64,000 nucleotides of DNA from Escherichia coli (GCA_029351405.1 GCA_029351405.1_4841.1); one strand, 5' to 3'; counted from the stretch's first letter, positions 6,754 through 40,442 are shown. Translations and numbers: made by a program. The notes: a model not told the origin generated them from the letters alone.

Positions 6754-7308
6754 ATGAAATATTTTGAGAAGTTTCCACTTGTTTGGCATCAATTGCAAGA
6801 TGTCCAAGAGAATGATCAGGTGCTGTTACAGAACTTAACGCGCCGGGTGATGATCTTACAGAAAATTAAGGACATCGAAGGGCTTCTCCTGCCGTATACG
6901 ATCCAAGAGGGGGAAACCCCAAGGTCTTTCGCGGAACGCGTTTACGGATCCTTCGAGTTGTTTTGGATACCTTGTCTGATAAATGGCATCATGGACATCA
7001 ATAAGGACTGGCCGAAACCGGAACGCCGTATTATTGAAGAACTGACTGCAGATTATGGCATCGATGGTATGTGGGATACAGCCTATTATGTCGACCAGTT
7101 CAACAATGTGACCGACGCCCGTGCTATCAAATTTGCATATAACCTAGACCTGGATGAGCCGTCCATAATTGCTAACTATGGCCTGACGGCAGTTTCATAC
7201 CATGATGATGCAATCAGTAAGAATGAAGCCAAACGGAACATCCAAGTACTCGACCCAGATTATGTGTCTTCGTTTGTCAATCAGCTGGAGCAGGAGTTGG
7301 CGAAATGA
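6754..7308 (+). CDS. structural-operon protein (baseplate hub-associated, tentative)
   Basis: 184 aa ORF between baseplate genes; overlapping stop/start with next gene. Confidence 0.35.
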   Translation: MKYFEKFPLVWHQLQDVQENDQVLLQNLTRRVMILQKIKDIEGLLLPYTIQEGETPRSFAERVYGSFELFWIPCLINGIMDINKDWPKPERRIIEELTADYGIDGMWDTAYYVDQFNNVTDARAIKFAYNLDLDEPSIIANYGLTAVSYHDDAISKNEAKRNIQVLDPDYVSSFVNQLEQELAK

Positions 7309-8693
7309 TCGAAAACAGAGAGACCCAAGACGGTATTGTAACACCGTCAACAACATTTGACCTGAAGTATATGGCGATCCTCCCTCATACACCCCAGGGT
7401 GGATCACCAACGCCATATGACCTGACGGCGTTGTTTGAGGAGTTCAACGTCTTCCAGGATCTGGGTCTTGAAGGGAAGTCATCTCCATCACTTACAGCCA
7501 ATGTCTTGATAAAAGAGGGGTGGGACATTCTTGACACAATGCCTATCTTGGGTGGTGAAGAAGTTGTGGTGTCATTCAAGAGTCCGGCGGCCTCGGAATA
7601 CACCACTCTCTCCCTGCGCGTAGCGCGTGTTGGGCGCGTAGCTGATGAGTCCAACAGCTCGTCCAAGAAAGCATTCTGGTTGCACATGGTGACCACCGAT
7701 GCCTATAAGGACAGCATGATCCGCTGCTCCCTCGGTCTTGACGGTTCGTATTCTGACATGGCAAAGGTAATCTTCAATCAGCTGGAGTCGCGCACCAAGT
7801 TCGAAGACATCGACCCGTCGTATGGTATTCAAGAGCGGTTCGCCACCCCGCTCTGGCCTGTGCTGCGATCTATTGATTATATGGCGAGCCGTTCTTATGA
7901 CGAATTGTTCATGCCATTCGTGTTCTATGAAGACTTCAATGGCTATCACTTCAAGAGCCTGACGACGTTGTTCAACCAGGGCAGCCAGTCATTGACAGCA
8001 GAAGAGAAGCAGGAACTAGCTCAGCAGAACAAGTTGTTCCGTGATCCTCAGGACGCGCCGCTCATGCAGGATAACAACTTCAACTCTGAGCGCTTTATGC
8101 GCACGATCATCAAGGCAGAGAAGAAGCTGGCGCGTGACCAGTTCATGGCAAATTACCGTGACGTCCTGGCGGTGAACGAGCGTGTCTACGACTTTGAGAC
8201 CAAGACAGTCACCCCAACACAGCGCATCTATACTGAGTGGTTTGCAGAGACGGCTCACCTTGATCCGTTCCCGATGTTCTCAGATGAATTCAATCGTCAG
8301 AACGTCCGTTACATTGAAGCCCAGCCGGATGGAGCGGAGCAGATTGATTATGCTCGTCGTGTTATCAACTTCAGTCTTGCCAGCACTGTGATGCGCGTGT
8401 TGCTCGTTGGTGATAACCGCCTGAACGTCGGTCAGGTGTTCTACGTCGAAGACCAGTCCAACCGTCCTAAGAAGAACGAAAACCTGGCAGAGTTAAGTAA
8501 GCTATCGACAGGCCACTATATCGTGACCAAAGTGCGTCACAAAATTTCCCGCCTGACCAAAGATTATCAGTGCATCGCTGAGATTGCCAAGGACAGTTTG
8601 CTGGAGCAGGTGCTTCCACCTCAGACCAATCAGACAACTGCTTCCACCACTACTCCTCAGGCGATTGAGAAAGGCCAAGCACAGAAGGTTTAA
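7305..8693 (+). CDS. baseplate hub protein (gp27-like, tentative)
   Basis: 462 aa, precedes tape-measure-like gene; size and position fit hub subunit. Confidence 0.35.
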   Translation: MIENRETQDGIVTPSTTFDLKYMAILPHTPQGGSPTPYDLTALFEEFNVFQDLGLEGKSSPSLTANVLIKEGWDILDTMPILGGEEVVVSFKSPAASEYTTLSLRVARVGRVADESNSSSKKAFWLHMVTTDAYKDSMIRCSLGLDGSYSDMAKVIFNQLESRTKFEDIDPSYGIQERFATPLWPVLRSIDYMASRSYDELFMPFVFYEDFNGYHFKSLTTLFNQGSQSLTAEEKQELAQQNKLFRDPQDAPLMQDNNFNSERFMRTIIKAEKKLARDQFMANYRDVLAVNERVYDFETKTVTPTQRIYTEWFAETAHLDPFPMFSDEFNRQNVRYIEAQPDGAEQIDYARRVINFSLASTVMRVLLVGDNRLNVGQVFYVEDQSNRPKKNENLAELSKLSTGHYIVTKVRHKISRLTKDYQCIAEIAKDSLLEQVLPPQTNQTTASTTTPQAIEKGQAQKV

Positions 8694-8704: not shown

Positions 8705-10651
8705 ATGGCACAGGAAGCAACGAACAATGATGTTGTCAAAGTTCTAGACAAGATCAAGGCGGAGATGATGCAGCGCAAACAACTCCGCGCTCAGAATGAA
8801 ACCAACAGACAGCTTGATCGGATGAACAAGAATCTGGCCAAGCTGGAATCTGCCACTAAACAGGACACCAAGGCCGAGTCCAAGCCATTTGAAATCCGTA
8901 TCCCGACAGTCAATGAGATCGTCATGGGATTCGCTCGCATGTCTCCGATCTTCACCCGCGACTTCAGCGTATGGATGAAGGATACTGTCGATGTGGGTAA
9001 CGAAGGCAATCGGGAACTGGAGAATATCACAGGCAAGATTGACCGCCTCGGTGAGATCACCCGCATGCCAACAGATGACACGTCCCTGGAGTATCTTAAC
9101 CTGATCTCAGACCAGCTGAAGTCTGCCAATGATGACACCCTCAAGCGCATGGACGAGCAGAGTGTGTCTCTGGTCCGCGTGGGATCATTCTTGAACATGA
9201 TCGACGGAGTGATGATCGAGGTTCGTGACGATGTTGCTGAACTGAAAAGGAACTCCGATGACACCCTTACTCGCTTGTCTAGCATTGAAAACAAGATTGG
9301 GCGCACGGGCGGTCATATCGTTGGAGTTCTGACACGCATCTTTGATGAAGACCAGAAGTGGCGTGAGAAGGACGAGATGCGCCGTGGGGAAACCGACAAA
9401 GAAACGGGTGGTCATCCTCAGGCGGGTTCTGTTATACCCAAAGACGATGACCAGAAAGACGATTCCTCCGGTATCGGGGCGGCGGTGGCGGCCATGCTTG
9501 GCCTGAATGCACTGAAGGGCTTCTTGCTCAAGCCGTTCAAGATCATCGGTGGTGTTGTCGGGACTTTCCTCGGCATGTTCTCCAAGCTGGGAGAAGGTAT
9601 CACCAAACTTCTGGGTCCATTTGGGAAGGTGTTCAAGTTCCTGAAAGTCGGCCCACTGGCTCTCCTGTCTATGATCTGGGACTTCGGTAAAGGCTTCATT
9701 GATGCGAAGGAGATCCTGGGTAAAGGTGCTGTCACGATAGTTGACCGAGTACGGGCGGGGATATCAGAACTGGTTGGTGGATTTGGTGATCTATTTGACT
9801 GGGTGTCCAAGATCTTTGGCTTTGATACCAAAGCGGGTGAAACCCTGCGCAAATACACCCTCATGATCACTGAGGCTCCCGCTCGTTGGCTGAATGGTAT
9901 TATCGACTGGATTAGCAACGACTTGTTTGCAGGGATCGGGAGAGACACGTCTCTTACGGATATCCCTGGCAAGTTAGCAGACAACCTACAGTCCGAGTTG
10001 ATGAAGCTGGTAGACTGGATCACAGGGGGTATCAGTAGTGTGATCGACGAGGGCATGGGTGTGGCCAACAAGGTTATTGACGAAATCAAGAAGGGATTTG
10101 CCGAAAATGTGAAGAAACCTTTCTTCAACATGCTGAACACAATCACTAATGCGATGTTCGATATCGTTGACAAGTTCGTCAGCATCATCCCTGACGCTCT
10201 GGGTGGACAGGCTGCGAAGCAGAAGATGGATGAGGCTCGCCAGTCTATGCTGATTGACACTGATGGGAATCCGTCTCCTAATGTGACAGAGACCCAGCAG
10301 CCACAGACGCCAGCACAACCGAACATTGATACACAAACGCTGACTCCAATACCTTCTGGTGTGTCTTCAGATTACAAGAATATGACTAATGACCGCACCT
10401 CTCAGCTGAAAGCTGCGTATGGTTCTATCGGGGGTGGTACTCTGGGCGGGGCCATGCCATCACAAGGGAGGGCGCTGTCTAATATCGAGCAAGTACAAGG
10501 CGGCTATTCACCGCCTCCAGCCAGCGTCGTGATGCCAGTACAGCAGAATGTGGATGCTTCTAAGAGGATCAACACGACCAATAACTTCAACAGCTCATCT
10601 CTTGAGCCTGAGAACAAAACAGATAATTCCCGCATCCTGTGGGAATGGTAA
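8705..10651 (+). CDS. tail tape-measure / baseplate hub protein (gp29-like)
   Basis: 648 aa; N-terminal coiled-coil-rich region, central Gly-rich hydrophobic segment (GIGAAVAAMLGLNALKGFLL...), Q/N/T-rich C-terminus. Confidence 0.5.
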   Translation: MAQEATNNDVVKVLDKIKAEMMQRKQLRAQNETNRQLDRMNKNLAKLESATKQDTKAESKPFEIRIPTVNEIVMGFARMSPIFTRDFSVWMKDTVDVGNEGNRELENITGKIDRLGEITRMPTDDTSLEYLNLISDQLKSANDDTLKRMDEQSVSLVRVGSFLNMIDGVMIEVRDDVAELKRNSDDTLTRLSSIENKIGRTGGHIVGVLTRIFDEDQKWREKDEMRRGETDKETGGHPQAGSVIPKDDDQKDDSSGIGAAVAAMLGLNALKGFLLKPFKIIGGVVGTFLGMFSKLGEGITKLLGPFGKVFKFLKVGPLALLSMIWDFGKGFIDAKEILGKGAVTIVDRVRAGISELVGGFGDLFDWVSKIFGFDTKAGETLRKYTLMITEAPARWLNGIIDWISNDLFAGIGRDTSLTDIPGKLADNLQSELMKLVDWITGGISSVIDEGMGVANKVIDEIKKGFAENVKKPFFNMLNTITNAMFDIVDKFVSIIPDALGGQAAKQKMDEARQSMLIDTDGNPSPNVTETQQPQTPAQPNIDTQTLTPIPSGVSSDYKNMTNDRTSQLKAAYGSIGGGTLGGAMPSQGRALSNIEQVQGGYSPPPASVVMPVQQNVDASKRINTTNNFNSSSLEPENKTDNSRILWEW

Positions 10652-14545: not shown

Positions 14546-14659
14546 CTATTTCCTCTTAAAGGGGATGACCAGGGCTATGATGAGAAGCATAGCTGTAATC
14601 ATCCCGCATGCTATCAGACCAAAGGCGAACGACTTCAGAACAAACTCAATCAAATTCAT
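14546..14659 (-). CDS. micro-ORF encoding hydrophobic peptide (about 37 aa)
   Basis: ATG overlaps stop of upstream 408-aa gene (ATGA); GAGGAAA ribosome-binding site; hydrophobic product; not in ORF track (short). Confidence 0.3.
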   Translation of the reverse strand: MNLIEFVLKSFAFGLIACGMITAMLLIIALVIPFKRK

Positions 14660-15849
14660 AATTTCCTCAATTTGGCTCTGGTGACCTGAGTTTGTTTAAC
14701 GCCGTTGTACTCAGTCAGTTCTTTGACACGACCACGGATGATCATATCGCCCTGCAAGAACTCTGTATCCATATAAGAGGTCTTCCAGGTAATTGTATTG
14801 CCTTCTGCTGTTTTGAAAGTAAACAGGTAACTATCACCATATTCATTGGAGAAGAGGAAGGTGCGCTTGTCGAACCTGACTTGCACTTCCAGCATTTCAC
14901 CGACTTCTCCCACCCATTTGTTCTCCACCTTGCGTTCAGTACGAGGACGATGGATGTAATCGTAATACTTCTTGGCACCCCAGCGGACTGTGTTGTTATC
15001 CTTGATGAGGTGATAGCCGGGTTCACACATGCGTTTCAGGCGAACATTGAACTCATTAGATTCGGACAGCGCACTGATGAAAAGCTTCATATGGTACATT
15101 TCCGACTCTGCATCTTCACGGTATTCGTGTGCCTTGTTTACGAAATACTCTTCATCGGAACCTGCTTTTGGTTTCTGGTGAGACCGGACATAGCCCAGTA
15201 CTTTGTCAAACAGTTCAGACTTGATATCCACGCCTGCCAGCATCACTTGGAAGCATGCGCGCAGGTAACTGTGGGTGTCGGTGAAGCGCTCATTTTGGAC
15301 GCGATATATACCCTCTGGGTCGTCCTCGTCTGGCATGAAGAACTCTTGGATTTCCAGATAGTAAGACATAATCGCGTCAAGCGATTTCTGATGAGGTACA
15401 TAATGATGCATACAGGTGCTACCAATCAGCATCTGGGTATGCGTTTCCTCATTTTCAATCACATACGTGTTCTTGCGACGGATGGCTAGATTGCAATGCT
15501 GACACCAAGAGACGTTCTCTGTCTCGAAGCGACGGATGAAGTCAGGATTGATGTTGTCGGACAGGCGGTTAAGAATAACTTTTGGATATTCGTGATTGAA
15601 CTGACCGATGATCTTCCAGCCACCATAAGAGACGGGGCGGTCAATGCCTTCGCCTTCGAGAGTAACAGGTTTCCACCAGTGAGTAAGGATCTCACCAGTG
15701 AAGTCGCGGGTGTGGGTTTTGAAGGGTTCACCATAAGTCACAGTCGGAAACGGAACACCCAACCTTTCGGCAGTGCGCTCGAGCTTCTTCAGTCGCTCAA
15801 CTACCAACCCTTCATTGTCGATCGGAATATTGAATGTTTTGACGTTCAT
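14656..15849 (-). CDS. hypothetical protein with Cys/His cluster
   Basis: Start taken at Met preceded by GAGG (MNVKT); WCQHC ... CMHHY motif; no confident family. Confidence 0.5.
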   Translation of the reverse strand: MNVKTFNIPIDNEGLVVERLKKLERTAERLGVPFPTVTYGEPFKTHTRDFTGEILTHWWKPVTLEGEGIDRPVSYGGWKIIGQFNHEYPKVILNRLSDNINPDFIRRFETENVSWCQHCNLAIRRKNTYVIENEETHTQMLIGSTCMHHYVPHQKSLDAIMSYYLEIQEFFMPDEDDPEGIYRVQNERFTDTHSYLRACFQVMLAGVDIKSELFDKVLGYVRSHQKPKAGSDEEYFVNKAHEYREDAESEMYHMKLFISALSESNEFNVRLKRMCEPGYHLIKDNNTVRWGAKKYYDYIHRPRTERKVENKWVGEVGEMLEVQVRFDKRTFLFSNEYGDSYLFTFKTAEGNTITWKTSYMDTEFLQGDMIIRGRVKELTEYNGVKQTQVTRAKLRKL

Positions 15850-30625: not shown

Positions 30626-31432
30626 ATGAATTTACCATCATTGCCCAGAACAGAAAAGACATATAAAAGCGACTTTTGGCCTACTGTGATCAAATATCGC
30701 GCCTTTACTGCGGGGCAACAAACTTTGTTACTTCAGGTGTCAGATCCGCAAACGCCGATTGAAGAACGCGCAGCCATGATGGAGAGTCTCTTTAGCGAGT
30801 GTGTAAATGCAGGCGCACCTTTCAGCAAACTGCCAATCGGCGTTGTTGAAGAAGTGTTCATCCGCATGCGCATGATCTCCATCGGTGAATTGATGAAGAT
30901 TCGTTATAAGTGCAATAATCAGATTGAAGAAACGATCGATCTGGGAGATGGTCAAGAAAAGCACCAGATGGTTCCCTGTGAGCAGGAACTGACTTTACCT
31001 ATCCCGTTGAACAATGTCAAATGCATTGCTCAGGACGGCTTCCGGGAGACGTTTGACCTGCCAGGTGGATATCACCTCAAAATGCGCCAACCTTCCTTCT
31101 CGGACGCTACGGCACTGTCTGATGCTGCAAGCGTTGAGATGATGCTGGCCACCTTTATCGACTGTCTGTATGATGATGACGGTCAGGTGTGGAAGGTTGA
31201 GAATCCTGAAGAAATCGGAATCACTCCGGAAGAGGCTACTGAGCGCCGCCGTGTGAAAGAAGCGTTTGTTGGGTGGGTGAAGGATAACATCGAATCAGAT
31301 GTTATTGACAGCATTACGAAGAACTTCTTCCATAAAATACCGCGCATCCACTACAAGAGTTCGATCAAGTGTCCGAAATGTGGTAAGGAGCACAAAATCG
31401 AATTCAATAGTATTAATGAAATTTTCATTTAA
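30626..31432 (+). CDS. hypothetical protein with C-terminal C-x2-C zinc-ribbon (possible baseplate assembly protein)
   Basis: Start at internal Met (MNLPSLP) with GGAG ribosome-binding site; CPKCGKEH near C-terminus; lies just upstream of gp5-like gene. Confidence 0.4.
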   Translation: MNLPSLPRTEKTYKSDFWPTVIKYRAFTAGQQTLLLQVSDPQTPIEERAAMMESLFSECVNAGAPFSKLPIGVVEEVFIRMRMISIGELMKIRYKCNNQIEETIDLGDGQEKHQMVPCEQELTLPIPLNNVKCIAQDGFRETFDLPGGYHLKMRQPSFSDATALSDAASVEMMLATFIDCLYDDDGQVWKVENPEEIGITPEEATERRRVKEAFVGWVKDNIESDVIDSITKNFFHKIPRIHYKSSIKCPKCGKEHKIEFNSINEIFI

Positions 31433-31580
31433 TGTTTGAAACTGATTTATTATCCTACTTCGTGATGTGTGATGAATTGAAGTTACACGGCTATAGCATA
31501 TTTGAAATCAACGAGTCGATGCCATGGCATCTTGACTTGTTAACCGAAGCCCTCAAGGTCAGGTTGTCTAAGAAACAGTA

Positions 31581-31603
31581 ATCCCGCTTCGGCGGGATTT
31601 TTA
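31581..31603 (+). terminator. rho-independent terminator
   Basis: ATCCCGC-TTCG-GCGGGAT stem-loop followed by TTTTT. Confidence 0.6.
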
Positions 31604-31903
31604 TTGGCTTAACTGTAAAATCGGTTAACACGCACTCTCTTTACCTGAAATTGCTATAATGGGCTTGTTCCCCGAATCATTTGTTGGTGTTTGTCTGTTT
31701 TGAATCAGATTGTCAGTAAAATACCATTTTTCAAGGAGTGTTCTGGGGTGTACAGTTATTGCCTCGCCCTTATGCCTCCATGGCATTGGAATGGTGCTGC
31801 CCGCATAGGGCGGTTTGATGAGCGAAGCGAATAGGATCGAATAAAACAAATAAAATGAACGGAAGCAGAGCTTCCTATAGTATATAAGGCAAAATCAGCT
31901 GCG

Positions 31904-31911
31904 CATAAATA
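31904..31911 (+). promoter_or_regulatory. late-promoter-like box (cATAAATA)
   Basis: 7 of 8 match to TATAAATA, about 34 nt upstream of ATG at 31946. Confidence 0.45.
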
Positions 31912-31945
31912 CCTTCAAATCCTTGTTTGACAACCGGAACTCAAT

Positions 31946-33556
31946 ATGTTAGACAATATGAGATGGTTTTACGGCACCGTTGAAGATGTCAACGATCCAG
32001 ACCAAAACGGGCGCGTCGCCGTCCGCATCTATGGCGTACACACCGACGATCCCGTCCTCCTGCCTACGGACAAACTCCCATGGGCGAAGGTACTGATGCC
32101 TGCTTCAAACGCCTCCTCTGCTGGTTTAGGTTGGTCTCCAACGGGTATCATTCCTGGTACTGAGGTTATGGGGTTCGCCCTTGACGAAGCATACCAGAAT
32201 TTACGCATCACCTGGACTTGGACTGGTTCAAGTCCTACTGATGGTGCCGACACAAACCCACTGGCTCTCGGGCAGGTCGTTCAATCTGTGGAACGTCAGG
32301 CGTACAACGCCGTCACTGACGTTCCTGTGAAACAAGAAGACGAACCACAACCAGATCCACAACCACCTGTTGGCGGGTATGATCCAGAGAAGTGGATGAC
32401 AATCGCGCGTGGTGAATTGGGTATCAAGGAGTACGCCGGAAAGTTCAACAACAACCCGCGCATTATAGAATATCACAAGACAACCTCCCTTGGTGCTTCT
32501 GAAGATGAAGTGTCGTGGTGTGCGGCGTTCGTGGGTTGGGTTATGATACAGGCTGGATACACGTCTACGCGCTCCGCTCTTGCCCGATCTTACCTTACAT
32601 GGGGTACTGCACTGTCAGCACCACAATATGGCGCTATCGTAGTCTTCCGGCGTGGTAACAACCCCACATTTGGACACGTAGCGTTTGTGCAGAAGTTCGA
32701 TGCAAACTATGTCTGGTGTATTGGTGGCAACCAATCCGATTCAGTGAAGGTTAGTCGTTTCAGACGTTCTTCGGTCTTGGGATATCGTTGGCCTGGTCCT
32801 GCTAACACAGCCACAGCCGCGCCTGCGCAGCAGAATGGTAAATGGTCAGAACCTATCCCAGATCGTACTCCAAAGGAACAACCGACTCCGGCTCCTACTG
32901 GGCGAGTACAGGATATTGACAACACTGGAGAAACCATGGTTCCGGCTGCGGGTGGATCTAAATACCCGTACAATAACGTCATGGTGTCCCGAGCTGGGCA
33001 TATTATGGAAGTGGATGACACCCCTGGCGGTGAACGTCTTCACTGGATGCATAAGTCTGGGTCTTACAAGCAAATGTTGCCGGATGGTGATGTGGTCAAC
33101 AAGTCCGTCAAAGACCACTATGACCTGACGATGTTCAACAAGCGTTATTATGTCGGCGGGGACCACAACCTGACGGTCAAAGGAACTGAAGTTCAGCGCA
33201 AGACAGGTGAGGTCTATCATTTGCATTCCAACAATTACTCCAACGTGGTTGCGGGCACAGCGCTGATGAAATTCAGTGACCTAGCTGAGTTTCAAGCACA
33301 GAATATTCTGCGCATTATCTGCGAGACTCTGGAGGTCGGCGGGACATTGAAGGTTCCTAAGATTCTAACGACTGAGATCATCGCTGACAAACTGACTGTC
33401 GCTCAGACGATCAATGGTAACATCATATATGCCGAAGGTGCTGGTCGCGCTTCTTCTCTGTCGGGTGCAACCCCTGCATCCCCTACGGGTCCGGGTGAGA
33501 TTGACATCAAGGCAGAATTAAAAGACAATGGTGGTAATTTCGGCACCAAAGAGTAA
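31946..33556 (+). CDS. baseplate hub / cell-puncturing protein (gp5-like) with NlpC/P60-type peptidase-like domain
   Basis: N-terminal gp5-type OB-fold signature (WFYGTVEDVNDPDQNGRVAVRIYGVH); central domain (GYDPEKWMTIARGELGIKEYAGKFNNNPRIIEYH ... SWCAAFVGW) resembling TIGR02594-type cell-wall hydrolases; C-terminal beta-helix-like region. Confidence 0.7.
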   Translation: MLDNMRWFYGTVEDVNDPDQNGRVAVRIYGVHTDDPVLLPTDKLPWAKVLMPASNASSAGLGWSPTGIIPGTEVMGFALDEAYQNLRITWTWTGSSPTDGADTNPLALGQVVQSVERQAYNAVTDVPVKQEDEPQPDPQPPVGGYDPEKWMTIARGELGIKEYAGKFNNNPRIIEYHKTTSLGASEDEVSWCAAFVGWVMIQAGYTSTRSALARSYLTWGTALSAPQYGAIVVFRRGNNPTFGHVAFVQKFDANYVWCIGGNQSDSVKVSRFRRSSVLGYRWPGPANTATAAPAQQNGKWSEPIPDRTPKEQPTPAPTGRVQDIDNTGETMVPAAGGSKYPYNNVMVSRAGHIMEVDDTPGGERLHWMHKSGSYKQMLPDGDVVNKSVKDHYDLTMFNKRYYVGGDHNLTVKGTEVQRKTGEVYHLHSNNYSNVVAGTALMKFSDLAEFQAQNILRIICETLEVGGTLKVPKILTTEIIADKLTVAQTINGNIIYAEGAGRASSLSGATPASPTGPGEIDIKAELKDNGGNFGTKE

Positions 33557-33628: not shown

Positions 33629-34009
33629 ATGAAAGAGTACAAAGATGTCGATCTGAAGTTCGGCATGCATCCGGTGACCAAAGATGTCACCATGAAATCA
33701 GGTGTATATGCTGTCTTACAATCCGTGCGGAATATCGTCATGTCTTCAGTCGGGGACTGGCCCACTTATCCTGGGATCGGCGCAGGGTTGTATAATCTCC
33801 TCGGAGAGAACACCACCCCAACGATTCAGGTAGATGTGAAGAACAAAGTAGAGGACGCTATCGCCCTGTATGAACCCAGAGCAGAGGTAGAAGAAGTCAC
33901 GGTGAGTCTGTCAGAGGATTACCATTCTCTGGGCGTGACCATCACATTCTATGTGGTCAACAATCCAGATCCAATAACAGACACCGTGTGGTTGAAAAGG
34001 ACGAATTAG
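33629..34009 (+). CDS. baseplate wedge protein, gp25-like
   Basis: 126 aa; pattern SVRNIVMSSVGDWP ... YEPRAEVEEV ... VTITFYVVNNPDP recalled as matching T4 gp25. Confidence 0.7.
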   Translation: MKEYKDVDLKFGMHPVTKDVTMKSGVYAVLQSVRNIVMSSVGDWPTYPGIGAGLYNLLGENTTPTIQVDVKNKVEDAIALYEPRAEVEEVTVSLSEDYHSLGVTITFYVVNNPDPITDTVWLKRTN

Positions 34010-39647: not shown

Positions 39648-40442
39648 TTAACTGAAACTCTTGTATGCTGCTGCGAGCTTCGTGTCGTACTGGTTCTTGG
39701 CATACGCCGGACCATTATAGCGCCGCGCAAACTCAGCCCAGTTCTTGTCCTTCAGAGCCTGCCAGAGCTTGGCGTCAGCCTTGATGAACTTCACGAATGC
39801 CATCAAATGAGCACGTTCTCCTGTCAGGAAGTCGTTGAACATCTCCTTGGCGTTGGCATATCCACAGACCTGGCAGTTGAATCCCATGATCTGGAAGAGA
39901 CCGTAAGAGGCGCTCTCGTACGCACAATCCTCGTCGATGTTGATCGCTGCATGAAGTCGATCCAACTCCGCGTCGCCGCCCGTGTACCCGCCTGCGGAAG
40001 GGCTGACCAACGTCGGGTACATATGTCCCATGGCATTCGCCCGAGCCTGTCCGAACTTCGCCATCAGCTTCTTATACATGATGTGGCGCTCAAATAATGT
40101 CTTGATCTTACCTGATTTGGTGAAGCCCGTGCCGCGCGACTCAACCTGATTCACCGCCTTGACAGAGGCAAGGTCAACACCCAGATCGTTAGCAGCATCA
40201 ATCAGGTCTGACTCAGTTAGATGATCCTGATGGGCGTCTCCGGCGTTGCGAATAGCATAGGAGGTCTTTGGACCCACGATACCATCAATGACAAGTCCCG
40301 CACCCGCCTGAACCGTCTTGACGGCGTTCTCTGTTACCTTGCCAAAGATACCATCAGCGACGAGGGTGAAGCCGATTTTGTTGAGGCTATTCTGAAGTGC
40401 CTTCACTTCAGTGCCACGGTTGCCAAGTTTTAGAATGGCCAT
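39648..40442 (-). CDS. endolysin: peptidoglycan-binding domain plus N-acetylmuramidase-like catalytic domain
   Basis: N-terminal PG_binding_1-like repeat (LKLGNRGTEVKALQNSLN ... DGIFGKVTENAV ... DGIVGPKT); C-terminal domain with EYESASYGLFQIMGFN-type motif; start at Met with GGAGG ribosome-binding site. Confidence 0.7.
   Translation of the reverse strand: MAILKLGNRGTEVKALQNSLNKIGFTLVADGIFGKVTENAVKTVQAGAGLVIDGIVGPKTSYAIRNAGDAHQDHLTESDLIDAANDLGVDLASVKAVNQVESRGTGFTKSGKIKTLFERHIMYKKLMAKFGQARANAMGHMYPTLVSPSAGGYTGGDAELDRLHAAINIDEDCAYESASYGLFQIMGFNCQVCGYANAKEMFNDFLTGERAHLMAFVKFIKADAKLWQALKDKNWAEFARRYNGPAYAKNQYDTKLAAAYKSFS

What the first reader, a model, noticed from the sequence alone, without database searches (positions are those of the whole stretch)
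31946..33556. gp5-like hub protein carrying a peptidase-like rather than lysozyme-like cell-wall domain
The N-terminus has the gp5-type OB-fold signature and the C-terminus is beta-helix-like, but the central domain (GYDPEKWMTIARGELGIKEYAGKFNNNPRIIEYH ... SWCAAFVGW) resembles TIGR02594/NlpC-P60-type hydrolases, not the T4 gp5 lysozyme domain. This suggests a swapped peptidoglycan-cleaving module on the puncturing device.
Basis: partly seen in the sequence, partly recalled or inferred. Interest (0 to 1): 0.5.

Follow-up and report, generated by a model that had tools for sequence, protein, structure and literature searches.

The report
Phage tail spike carrying a cysteine peptidase
This gene encodes the central needle protein of a Vi1-like (Ackermannviridae) phage tail, and where phage T4's needle carries a lysozyme it carries a papain-like cell-wall peptidase; the reading is correct, but the protein is already in the databases and such enzyme swaps on phage needles are common.

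Summary

- **N-terminus:** residues 1-95 are a gp5-type OB domain.
- **C-terminus:** residues 337-430 are homologous to the start of the T4 gp5 needle. The last 106 residues match nothing, and T4-type 8-residue repeats are not detectable.

Cys192, His244 and Asn262/Gln263 are invariant. The peptidase domain is the most conserved part of the protein across 23 ortholog clusters.

The window is an Agtrevirus-like Ackermannviridae genome. It is 98.8% identical in DNA to phage AV101, and the protein is 99.6% identical to that of phage RPN242. About 280 phage records carry full-length orthologs, usually labelled "tail lysozyme", which is a misnomer.

Among 107 diverse gp5-OB proteins, the cell-wall module varies widely: lysozyme, M15, M23, amidase, GH19 and CHAP. 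The swap is therefore real but ordinary.

The enzyme activity and the bond it cleaves are untested, and I found no paper describing this domain. Interest is low to moderate.

The parts
31946..33556 (+). gp5-like baseplate central spike (hub) protein, 536 aa plus stop codon
   Evidence: ORF. [quoted passage not shown] 99.6% identical to the annotated protein of Escherichia phage vB_EcoM-RPN242. The AV101 ortholog is annotated 'baseplate hub protein (T4-like gp5)'.
31946..32230 (+). N-terminal gp5-type OB domain (residues 1-95)
   Evidence: Pfam Gp5_OB, E 1.9e-12. Aligns to T4 gp5 residues 6-101. Model pLDDT is about 85 with beta strands.
32231..32392 (+). Linker 1 (residues 96-149), including a predicted helix at 105-121 and a Pro/Glu/Asp-rich stretch
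   Evidence: No family hit. Low pLDDT. 64% mean pairwise identity among orthologs.
32393..32791 (+). TIGR02594 / CHAP papain-like cysteine peptidase domain (residues 150-282), the predicted peptidoglycan-cleaving module
32519..32521 (+). Codon of Cys192, the predicted catalytic nucleophile (motif SWCAAF)
   Evidence: Invariant in alignments A1 (37 sequences) and A2 (23 sequences). Codon TGT. Its role is inferred from the CHAP and NlpC/P60 family pattern.
32675..32677 (+). Codon of His244, the predicted catalytic base (motif FGHVAF)
   Evidence: Invariant in A1 and A2. Codon CAC. Role inferred.
32729..32734 (+). Codons of Asn262-Gln263 (motif GGNQ), candidates for the third polar residue of the catalytic site
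   Evidence: Invariant in A1 and A2. The CHAP profile match ends at residue 262. Assignment inferred, not verified in 3D.
32792..32953 (+). Linker 2 (residues 283-336), Pro-rich, containing the conserved WSEPIPDRTP motif
   Evidence: Pro303 is invariant even across distant gp5 relatives that carry other middle modules. Low pLDDT. It corresponds in position to the T4 gp5 linker that is cut during assembly (established T4 knowledge); cutting here is untested.
32954..33235 (+). gp5C-homologous segment (residues 337-430), start of the membrane-piercing needle
   Evidence: Aligns to T4 gp5 residues 385-475, domain E 2.6e-13, and to the KP1 spike 9f4a. pLDDT 74-90. The full-length model's best PDB matches are T4 gp5 and 9f4a, E about 1e-13.
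33236..33553 (+). Distal C-terminal segment (residues 431-536): presumed continuation and tip of the needle, no detectable family
   Evidence: No Pfam hit at E <= 1. No 8-residue periodicity. Confident extended chain to about residue 470, then low confidence. Conserved DNGGNF near the end.
31904..31911 (+). CATAAATA, a one-mismatch copy of the T4 late-promoter box TATAAATA, 35 nt upstream of the start codon
   Evidence: Sequence. Exact TATAAATA occurs 3 times in the window against 0.52 expected. Function inferred only.
31580..31606 (+). Intrinsic-terminator-like hairpin plus T-run ending the upstream gp26/gp51-like transcription unit
   Evidence: Scan hit with 8 pairs, 5 of them G-C, followed by TTTATT. 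The homologous stretch in LIMEstone1 carries an annotated terminator.
30626..31432 (+). gp26-like baseplate hub subunit (upstream neighbour)
   Evidence: Pfam T4_baseplate, E 8.8e-46. PHROG 150 'baseplate hub'. AV101 annotation 'T4-like gp26'.
31432..31582 (+). 49-aa ORF, possibly a gp51-like hub assembly factor
   Evidence: PHROG 9633, E 2.9e-39 (unknown function). Weak hit to PHROG 634 'baseplate hub assembly catalyst', E 4.4e-4.
33629..34009 (+). gp25-like baseplate wedge subunit (downstream neighbour)
   Evidence: Pfam GPW_gp25, E 6.6e-9. PHROG 261, E 2.6e-33.
7305..8693 (+). 462-aa tail protein, candidate gp27-like hub partner of the spike, lying between a gp53-like wedge gene and a tape-measure-like gene
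   Evidence: PHROG 350 'tail protein', E 8.9e-98. No Pfam hit. The gp27 role is inferred from gene order only.

Best explanation
This is the central spike (T4 gp5 equivalent) of an Agtrevirus-like Ackermannviridae myovirus.

By analogy with T4, three copies form the needle at the centre of the baseplate. The N-terminal OB domains dock under the hub. The C-terminal parts intertwine into the rigid membrane-piercing needle. The three central enzyme domains sit around its base. When the sheath contracts, the needle is driven through the outer membrane and carries the enzyme domains into the periplasm. There they locally open the peptidoglycan so that the tail tube can reach the inner membrane.

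The enzyme differs from T4's. Instead of a GH24 lysozyme that cuts the glycan strand, it is a TIGR02594-type papain-like cysteine peptidase of the NlpC/P60-CHAP superfamily, with Cys192 as nucleophile, His244 as base and Asn262/Gln263 as supporting polar residues. It should therefore cut the peptide part of the peptidoglycan. The most likely bond is gamma-D-Glu-meso-DAP in the stem, as in its closest structural relatives.

Shown here: the domain architecture, the fold, invariance of the catalytic residues, family-wide conservation, baseplate gene context, and (for a related phage) presence in virions.

Inferred: trimer assembly, delivery into the periplasm, catalytic activity, bond specificity, and any proteolytic maturation in linker 2.
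For: Architecture:
- Gp5_OB plus CHAP, and TIGR02594 over its full length, well above the cutoff.
- T4 gp5 structures align only to residues 3-93 and 338-430.
- PHROG 430, E 2.3e-154.
- The full-length model's best PDB matches are T4 gp5 (1k28) and the KP1 central spike (9f4a), E about 1e-13.

Fold:
- The central-domain model has pLDDT 88 and pTM 0.85.
- The Foldseek top hits are likewise NlpC/P60 and CHAP enzymes.

Active site: W191-C192, G243-H244 and G260-G261-N262-Q263 are invariant.

Selection: the peptidase domain is the most conserved segment among 23 ortholog clusters, with 82% pairwise identity against 56-72% for the other segments.

Context:
- The gene lies between gp26-like and gp25-like baseplate genes.
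- The phage has a separate endolysin of a different type, PG_binding_1 plus Muramidase PF11860, at 39651-40442 on the - strand.

Virion presence: the 'tail associated lysozyme' of the Vi01-like phage Sajous1 was detected in virion mass spectrometry with 20 spectra (PMC10892097).

Module exchange is common: among 107 gp5-OB proteins, Pfam finds Phage_lysozyme2 in 9, Peptidase_M15_3 in 6, VgrG3-like_C in 4, M15_4 in 3, CHAP in 3, Amidase_2 in 2, GH19 in 2, M23 in 1 and Hydrolase_2 in 1.
Against: - No enzyme assay exists for this protein or, as far as I could find, for any TIGR02594 member. No solved structure matches the TIGR02594 part of the profile at E < 0.1.
- CHAP-type domains can be amidases rather than endopeptidases, so the bond is a guess from structural neighbours with only 17-22% identity.
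- The distal 106 residues have no detectable family and no T4-type octad periodicity, so the needle may differ from T4's.
- The full-length monomer model is poor overall (pLDDT 54), and no trimer model could be made.
- The gp27-like partner is assigned only by gene order.
Confidence: 0.85

Rival explanations
1. Same spike architecture, but the central domain acts as an N-acetylmuramoyl-L-alanine amidase, or as a DD-endopeptidase on mDAP-D-Ala cross-links, rather than as a gamma-D-Glu-mDAP DL-endopeptidase.
Against: The highest-scoring structural neighbours are mostly described as, or known as, DL-endopeptidases: Acd24020, LytE, CwlO and a T. thermophilus D,L-endopeptidase. At 17-22% identity this is weak guidance.
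Confidence: 0.3
2. The central domain is catalytically inactive. It serves only as a peptidoglycan-binding or structural spacer domain on the spike.
For: No activity data exist. A single active-site cysteine exposed on an extracellular virion could be prone to oxidation.
Against: The Cys, His and GGNQ motifs are strictly invariant across 23 ortholog clusters down to 59% identity and across 37 distant family members. The domain is the most conserved part of the protein. The same domain occurs in endolysin-type and T6SS-effector contexts, where catalysis is the point.
Confidence: 0.04
3. The protein is not a virion spike. It is a soluble lysis enzyme (endolysin) that happens to carry gp5-like flanks.
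For: Free-standing TIGR02594 proteins are annotated as endolysins in several phages. ICP1 gp207, labelled 'gp5', is actually PG_binding_1 plus CHAP.
Against: - OB and gp5C homology to the T4 spike flanks the enzyme.
- The gene sits among baseplate genes.
- A related phage's ortholog is found in virions.
- The phage has its own muramidase-type endolysin.
Confidence: 0.02

Closest known systems
Bacteriophage T4 gp5 tail-associated lysozyme / cell-puncturing device (PDB 1K28, 1PDL); also the T4-like Klebsiella phage KP1 central spike (9F4A)
   Same: - N-terminal OB domain: residues 3-93 align to T4 6-101.
- Start of the C-terminal needle: residues 338-430 align to T4 385-475.
- Three-part layout of OB, enzyme and needle.
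- Neighbourhood of gp26-like and gp25-like baseplate genes.
- Best whole-model PDB matches.
   Different: - The GH24 lysozyme domain is replaced by a TIGR02594/CHAP cysteine peptidase. Nothing in residues 94-336 aligns to T4 gp5.
- No Gp5_C repeats and no octad periodicity were detected in the distal C-terminus.
- In T4 the tail enzyme is a paralog of the endolysin. Here the endolysin is an unrelated muramidase.
TIGR02594 family proteins in other settings: phage endolysin-type proteins (e.g. Vibrio phage ICP1 gp207, Pseudomonas phage ZC01_075) and VgrG-associated type VI secretion effectors of Stenotrophomonas
   Same: The same catalytic module. Identity over the domain reaches 57% to bacterial or prophage proteins and 42% to ICP1 gp207. 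The W-C, G-H and GGNQ motifs are invariant.
   Different: Those proteins are free-standing or fused to PG_binding_1, LysM or GH108 modules. They are released by lysis or by T6SS (PMC5418858; PMC13055248). They are not built into a spike between an OB domain and a needle.
Hub or spike proteins of contractile machines that carry NlpC/P60 or CHAP domains: diffocin Hub-Hydrolase CD1368 (8V3W_H), Staphylococcus phage phi812 hub protein (9EUF_E, 9EUM_A), phage Andhra tail tip lysin (8EJ5)
   Different: They target Gram-positive walls, use different scaffold proteins (no gp5 OB plus gp5C frame) and show no significant sequence similarity. The best profile E-value is 0.1, to 9eum_A.
NlpC/P60 (MEROPS C40) peptidoglycan DL-endopeptidases: C. 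difficile Acd24020 (7CFL), B. subtilis LytE (8I2F) and CwlO (8WT3), E. coli MepS (7V6S)
   Different: Only 17-22% identity. Pfam NLPC_P60 (PF00877) is not matched; CHAP and TIGR02594 are. They are cellular autolysins, not virion parts.
Rhizobium phage RHph_Y68 (Pootjesviridae) gp022 and metagenomic proteins P0024 and P0025
   Same: The same Gp5_OB plus TIGR02594/CHAP fusion. RHph_Y68 shows 36.8% identity over residues 3-283 in one continuous alignment.
   Different: They are 255-333 aa long and stop after the peptidase domain, with no gp5C-like needle. The needle must be supplied separately or be absent.

Membership tests
T4 gp5-type central spike (tail-associated lysozyme family) | N-terminal gp5 OB domain | tested here: met
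   Pfam Gp5_OB, 48 bits against a cutoff of 25. Aligns to T4 gp5 residues 6-101, E 9e-15.
T4 gp5-type central spike (tail-associated lysozyme family) | Central T4-lysozyme-like (GH24) domain | tested here: not met
   No lysozyme family in Pfam or NCBIfam. T4 gp5 does not align to residues 94-336. No lysozyme among the fold-search hits.
T4 gp5-type central spike (tail-associated lysozyme family) | C-terminal triple-stranded beta-helix needle (Gp5_C repeats) | tested here: inconclusive
   Residues 338-430 are homologous to T4 gp5 385-475, with a confident extended chain to about residue 470. But there is no Gp5_C or Gp5_trimer_C hit and no 8-residue periodicity. A trimer could not be modelled.
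T4 gp5-type central spike (tail-associated lysozyme family) | Structural component of the baseplate centre, bound to a gp27-like hub | not testable with these tools
   Indirect evidence only: baseplate gene context and virion mass-spectrometry detection of the ortholog in phage Sajous1 (PMC10892097).
TIGR02594 (NCBIfam subfamily) | Full-length match above the curated cutoff | tested here: met
   129.3 bits against 70.55; profile positions 2-132 of 132; residues 150-282.
CHAP domain (Pfam PF05257; papain-like Cys/His amidohydrolase-peptidase) | Profile match above the gathering score, with conserved Cys and His | tested here: met
   43.1 bits against 26. Cys192 and His244 are invariant in A1 and A2.
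CHAP domain (Pfam PF05257; papain-like Cys/His amidohydrolase-peptidase) | Peptidoglycan amidase or endopeptidase activity | not testable with these tools
   Needs a biochemical assay. No published assay of a TIGR02594 protein was found.
NlpC/P60 superfamily (structural) | Papain-like alpha+beta fold with Cys at a helix N-terminus and His on a beta strand | tested here: met
Ackermannviridae gp5 orthologs (PHROG 430) | Full-length similarity and conserved genomic position | tested here: met
   PHROG 430, E 2.3e-154. 280 phage records have orthologs covering at least 80% of the query. Co-linear at 98.8% identity with AV101 over 6 kb.

The most novel reading that the evidence does not exclude
Replacing the lysozyme with a stem-peptide peptidase could be adaptive rather than neutral. 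It would make the spike insensitive to defences and barriers aimed at glycan-cleaving enzymes: periplasmic lysozyme inhibitors of enterobacteria such as Ivy, MliC and PliC, Spackle-type superinfection exclusion as in T4, and peptidoglycan O-acetylation. It would then imply a dedicated, still unknown phage or host inhibitor of the TIGR02594 domain. My evidence neither supports nor excludes this reading. It rests only on the fixed, highly conserved peptidase module in a family that infects Enterobacterales and on the use of the same module as a T6SS toxin paired with an immunity protein (PMC13055248).
Probability: 0.1. Interest if true: 0.5.

Novelty: already known. Interest (0 to 1): 0.22.

Why it matters
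The practical point is annotation. Roughly 280 Ackermannviridae genomes label this protein "tail lysozyme". It almost certainly is not a lysozyme. The label has even been copied onto a free-standing PG_binding_1 plus CHAP protein in Vibrio phage ICP1.

The biological point is modest. Ackermannviridae phages are widely used in biocontrol and phage therapy of Salmonella, E. coli O157, Klebsiella and Dickeya. They enter through a wall opened by a cysteine peptidase rather than a glycosidase.

A 2017 review states that endopeptidase-type virion lysins had been demonstrated for only one Gram-negative phage, phi6 (PMC5380687). A direct assay of this domain would therefore fill a small experimental gap. 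It would also give the first biochemical and structural characterisation of the TIGR02594 family that I could find, a family also used as endolysins and T6SS toxins.

It does not reveal a new kind of system.

Tried and rejected
- **Octad repeats.** I looked for T4-type 8-residue repeats in residues 400-500 after seeing an apparent pattern by eye. The autocorrelation at lag 8 is 0.04, and 1701 of 5000 shuffles reach it. I therefore withdrew the beta-helix repeat claim for the distal part.
- **Pfam on the C-terminus.** A scan of residues 336-536 alone at E <= 1 found nothing.
- **OB-only word-index search.** A protein search with the OB domain alone returned a single fragment and was wasted. The exhaustive representative search replaced it, giving 2877 hits.
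- **Profile search of PDB with alignment A1.** It was dominated by the GH108 flanks of some members. For the peptidase part the best hit was only E 0.1, to the phi812 hub. No solved TIGR02594 relative was found by sequence.
- **Full-length AlphaFold model.** Using a mixed alignment gave a poor middle domain, because aligned relatives carry different modules. I used the domain-only model instead.
- **Upstream spacer.** I checked the 363-nt spacer for an RNA element. There is no Rfam hit in the whole window, and folding is not better than shuffles, z = -0.71.
- **Literature.** Searches for a description of this domain in Vi1-like or Ackermannviridae phages found none in the held library.
- **Alternative readings considered and rejected.** The endolysin reading and the dead-domain reading are treated under the rival explanations.

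Full report
**What is there**

An ATG-to-TAA ORF occupies exactly 31946..33556 on the + strand and encodes 536 aa.

The window is an Ackermannviridae genome of the Agtrevirus/Aglimvirinae type.
- The 6 kb around the gene is 98.8% identical to Escherichia phage AV101 and 93% identical to Shigella phage Ag3.
- About 280 phage records encode orthologs covering at least 80% of the query. Most are 80-90% identical and come from Salmonella Kuttervirus phages.
- In AV101 the gene is annotated "baseplate hub protein (T4-like gp5)". It lies between a gp26-like hub gene and a gp25-like wedge gene, which I confirmed for the window.

**Domain anatomy**

| Segment | Residues | Evidence |
|---|---|---|
| gp5 OB domain | 1-95 | Pfam Gp5_OB, E 1.9e-12. 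Aligns to T4 gp5 residues 6-101. |
| Linker 1 | 96-149 | No family hit. Rich in Pro, Glu and Asp. |
| TIGR02594 / CHAP peptidase | 150-282 | Covers the whole TIGR02594 profile, 129.3 bits against a cutoff of 70.55. Includes a Pfam CHAP match, 43 bits against 26. |
| Linker 2 | 283-336 | Pro-rich. Its WSEP motif is conserved even in distant gp5 relatives that carry other enzyme modules; Pro303 is invariant. |
| gp5C-homologous | 337-430 | Aligns to T4 gp5 residues 385-475, the beginning of the gp5C needle, domain E 2.6e-13. |
| Distal C-terminus | 431-536 | No detectable family. |

Solved T4 gp5 structures match only the two flanks and never the middle. No lysozyme family is found.

An apparent 8-residue pattern in the C-terminus did not survive a shuffle test. 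"Beta-helix-like" is therefore supported only by homology to the first part of gp5C and by a confident extended chain in the monomer model up to about residue 470. The full-length model's best PDB matches are T4 gp5 and the T4-like KP1 spike, followed by other central spikes and VgrG.

**The central domain**

I modelled residues 140-300 with an alignment of 37 diverse relatives. The model has pLDDT 88 and pTM 0.85.
- Foldseek against the PDB returns NlpC/P60 autolysins, MepS and CHAP lysins.
- By sequence, nothing solved matches the TIGR02594 part better than E 0.1.

Trp191-Cys192, Gly243-His244 and Gly260-Gly261-Asn262-Gln263 are invariant, both in the 37 diverse family members and in 23 full-length ortholog clusters down to 59% identity. 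Among those orthologs the peptidase domain is the most conserved segment. Its mean pairwise identity is 82% with 45% invariant columns, against 68% for the OB domain, 72% for the gp5C-like part and 56% for the distal part. This pattern is what purifying selection on an active enzyme would produce.

**How common the swap is**

An exhaustive search with the OB domain found 2877 cluster representatives at E <= 0.001. Pfam scans of 107 of the best hits showed Gp5_OB in all of them, joined to many different wall-degrading modules:

| Module | Members (of 107) |
|---|---|
| Phage_lysozyme2 | 9 |
| Peptidase_M15_3 | 6 |
| VgrG3-like C-terminal | 4 |
| Peptidase_M15_4 | 3 |
| CHAP | 3 |
| Amidase_2 | 2 |
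| Glyco_hydro_19 | 2 |
| Peptidase_M23 | 1 |
| Hydrolase_2 | 1 |

The same OB plus TIGR02594 fusion, without a needle, occurs in Rhizobium phage RHph_Y68 (Pootjesviridae; 36.8% identity over residues 3-283) and in metagenomic proteins. One relative carries OB plus NlpC_P60.

The closest relatives of the peptidase module outside spikes are bacterial or prophage proteins, up to 57% identical, fused to PG_binding_1, LysM or GH108. The same family is annotated as an endolysin in Pseudomonas phage ZC01 (PMC5418858) and as a VgrG-linked T6SS effector in Stenotrophomonas (PMC13055248).

Module exchange on the puncturing device is thus real here, and it is a general habit of this protein class.

**Mechanism**

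By analogy with T4 (established knowledge of the gp5-gp27 complex), a trimer forms the central needle. Sheath contraction drives it through the outer membrane, and the three enzyme domains open the peptidoglycan locally.

The enzyme should cut peptide bonds rather than glycan bonds. The most likely bond is gamma-D-Glu-mDAP, judging from the structural neighbours. An amidase or DD-endopeptidase activity is a serious alternative, to which I give about 0.3.

The phage's own endolysin is an unrelated PG_binding_1 plus muramidase protein at 39651-40442 on the - strand. Entry and exit therefore attack different bonds, unlike T4, where gp5 and the endolysin are paralogous lysozymes.

Virion mass spectrometry of the Vi01-like phage Sajous1 detected its "tail associated lysozyme" with 20 spectra, which supports a structural role (PMC10892097).

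Activity, bond specificity, trimer structure and any maturation cleavage in linker 2 are all inferred.

**Novelty**

The sequence, its family (PHROG 430) and its Pfam architecture (PF06714 plus PF05257, precomputed in the protein collection) are already in public databases. Some records even name it "TIGR02594 family protein" or "cell wall-associated hydrolase".

Papain-like peptidases on hubs of contractile machines are structurally documented for Gram-positive systems. I found no paper that discusses this domain in Ackermannviridae. A 2017 review notes that endopeptidase virion lysins had been shown for only one Gram-negative phage, phi6 (PMC5380687). What remains open is experimental characterisation, not discovery.

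**Verdict**

The feature is already known and of low to moderate interest.

Noticed in passing
window 31583-31945: A 363-nt non-coding spacer lies between the gp26/gp51-like unit and gp5. It starts with a terminator-like hairpin (31580-31599 plus a T-run) and ends with CATAAATA 35 nt before the ATG. It is conserved in 270 Ackermannviridae records (about 72% identity to Kuttervirus over positions 17-303) and is mostly unannotated. There is no Rfam hit, and RNA folding is no better than shuffles (z = -0.71). The - strand ORF 31625-31849 (74 aa, TTG start) inside it is not annotated in relatives.
   Followed up: partly
L003 2752-3468 (Vibrio phage ICP1 gp207, MW794173.1): [quoted passage not shown] Pfam shows PG_binding_1 plus CHAP in 238 aa with no OB domain, and the gene lies next to nrdAB and phoH. 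This looks like an annotation carried over from the Vi1-like gp5 through the shared TIGR02594 domain. It is more likely an endolysin-type enzyme.
   Followed up: partly
alignment A2, columns 546-629 (orthologs P0014-P0020, P0022, P0023): Orthologs from Serratia and Erwinia phages, plus unnamed relatives (605-617 aa), carry an extra C-terminal extension of about 70-80 aa. It has a Ser/Thr/Ala-rich stretch and a conserved end motif (..VIILRQxGSKPxMxxSNGxxWE..) that is absent from the window protein. Its function is unknown; it may be an extra tip domain.
   Followed up: no
window 39651-40442 (-): The phage endolysin candidate is PG_binding_1 plus Muramidase (PF11860, E 2.7e-59). AV101 annotates it only as 'putative peptidoglycan binding protein'.
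   Followed up: partly
window 31432-31582 (+): A 49-aa ORF directly after the gp26-like gene belongs to PHROG 9633 (unknown function). It has a weak hit (E 4.4e-4) to 'baseplate hub assembly catalyst' (gp51-like). If real, this reproduces the T4 26-51-25 gene neighbourhood with gp5 inserted.
   Followed up: partly
window 7305-8693 (+) and 8705-10651 (+): A 462-aa 'tail protein' (PHROG 350, E 8.9e-98) has no Pfam hit. It sits between a gp53-like wedge gene and a 648-aa tape-measure-like protein (PHROG 3799). By position it is the candidate gp27-like hub partner of the spike, but sequence does not show it.
   Followed up: partly
window 25790, 44283 (-), 55066: The exact T4 late-promoter box TATAAATA occurs 3 times against 0.52 expected by shuffling (0 of 100 shuffles reach 3). 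This is consistent with T4-like late transcription; gp33- and gp55-like genes are annotated in AV101.
   Followed up: no
hit H64, OR844944.1 'Enterococcus phage Efm 3-10' 14557-14837: A 38.5-kb record labelled as an Enterococcus phage matches the Ackermannviridae gp5-upstream spacer at 72.9% identity over 285 nt. This suggests a mislabelled or contaminated record.
   Followed up: no
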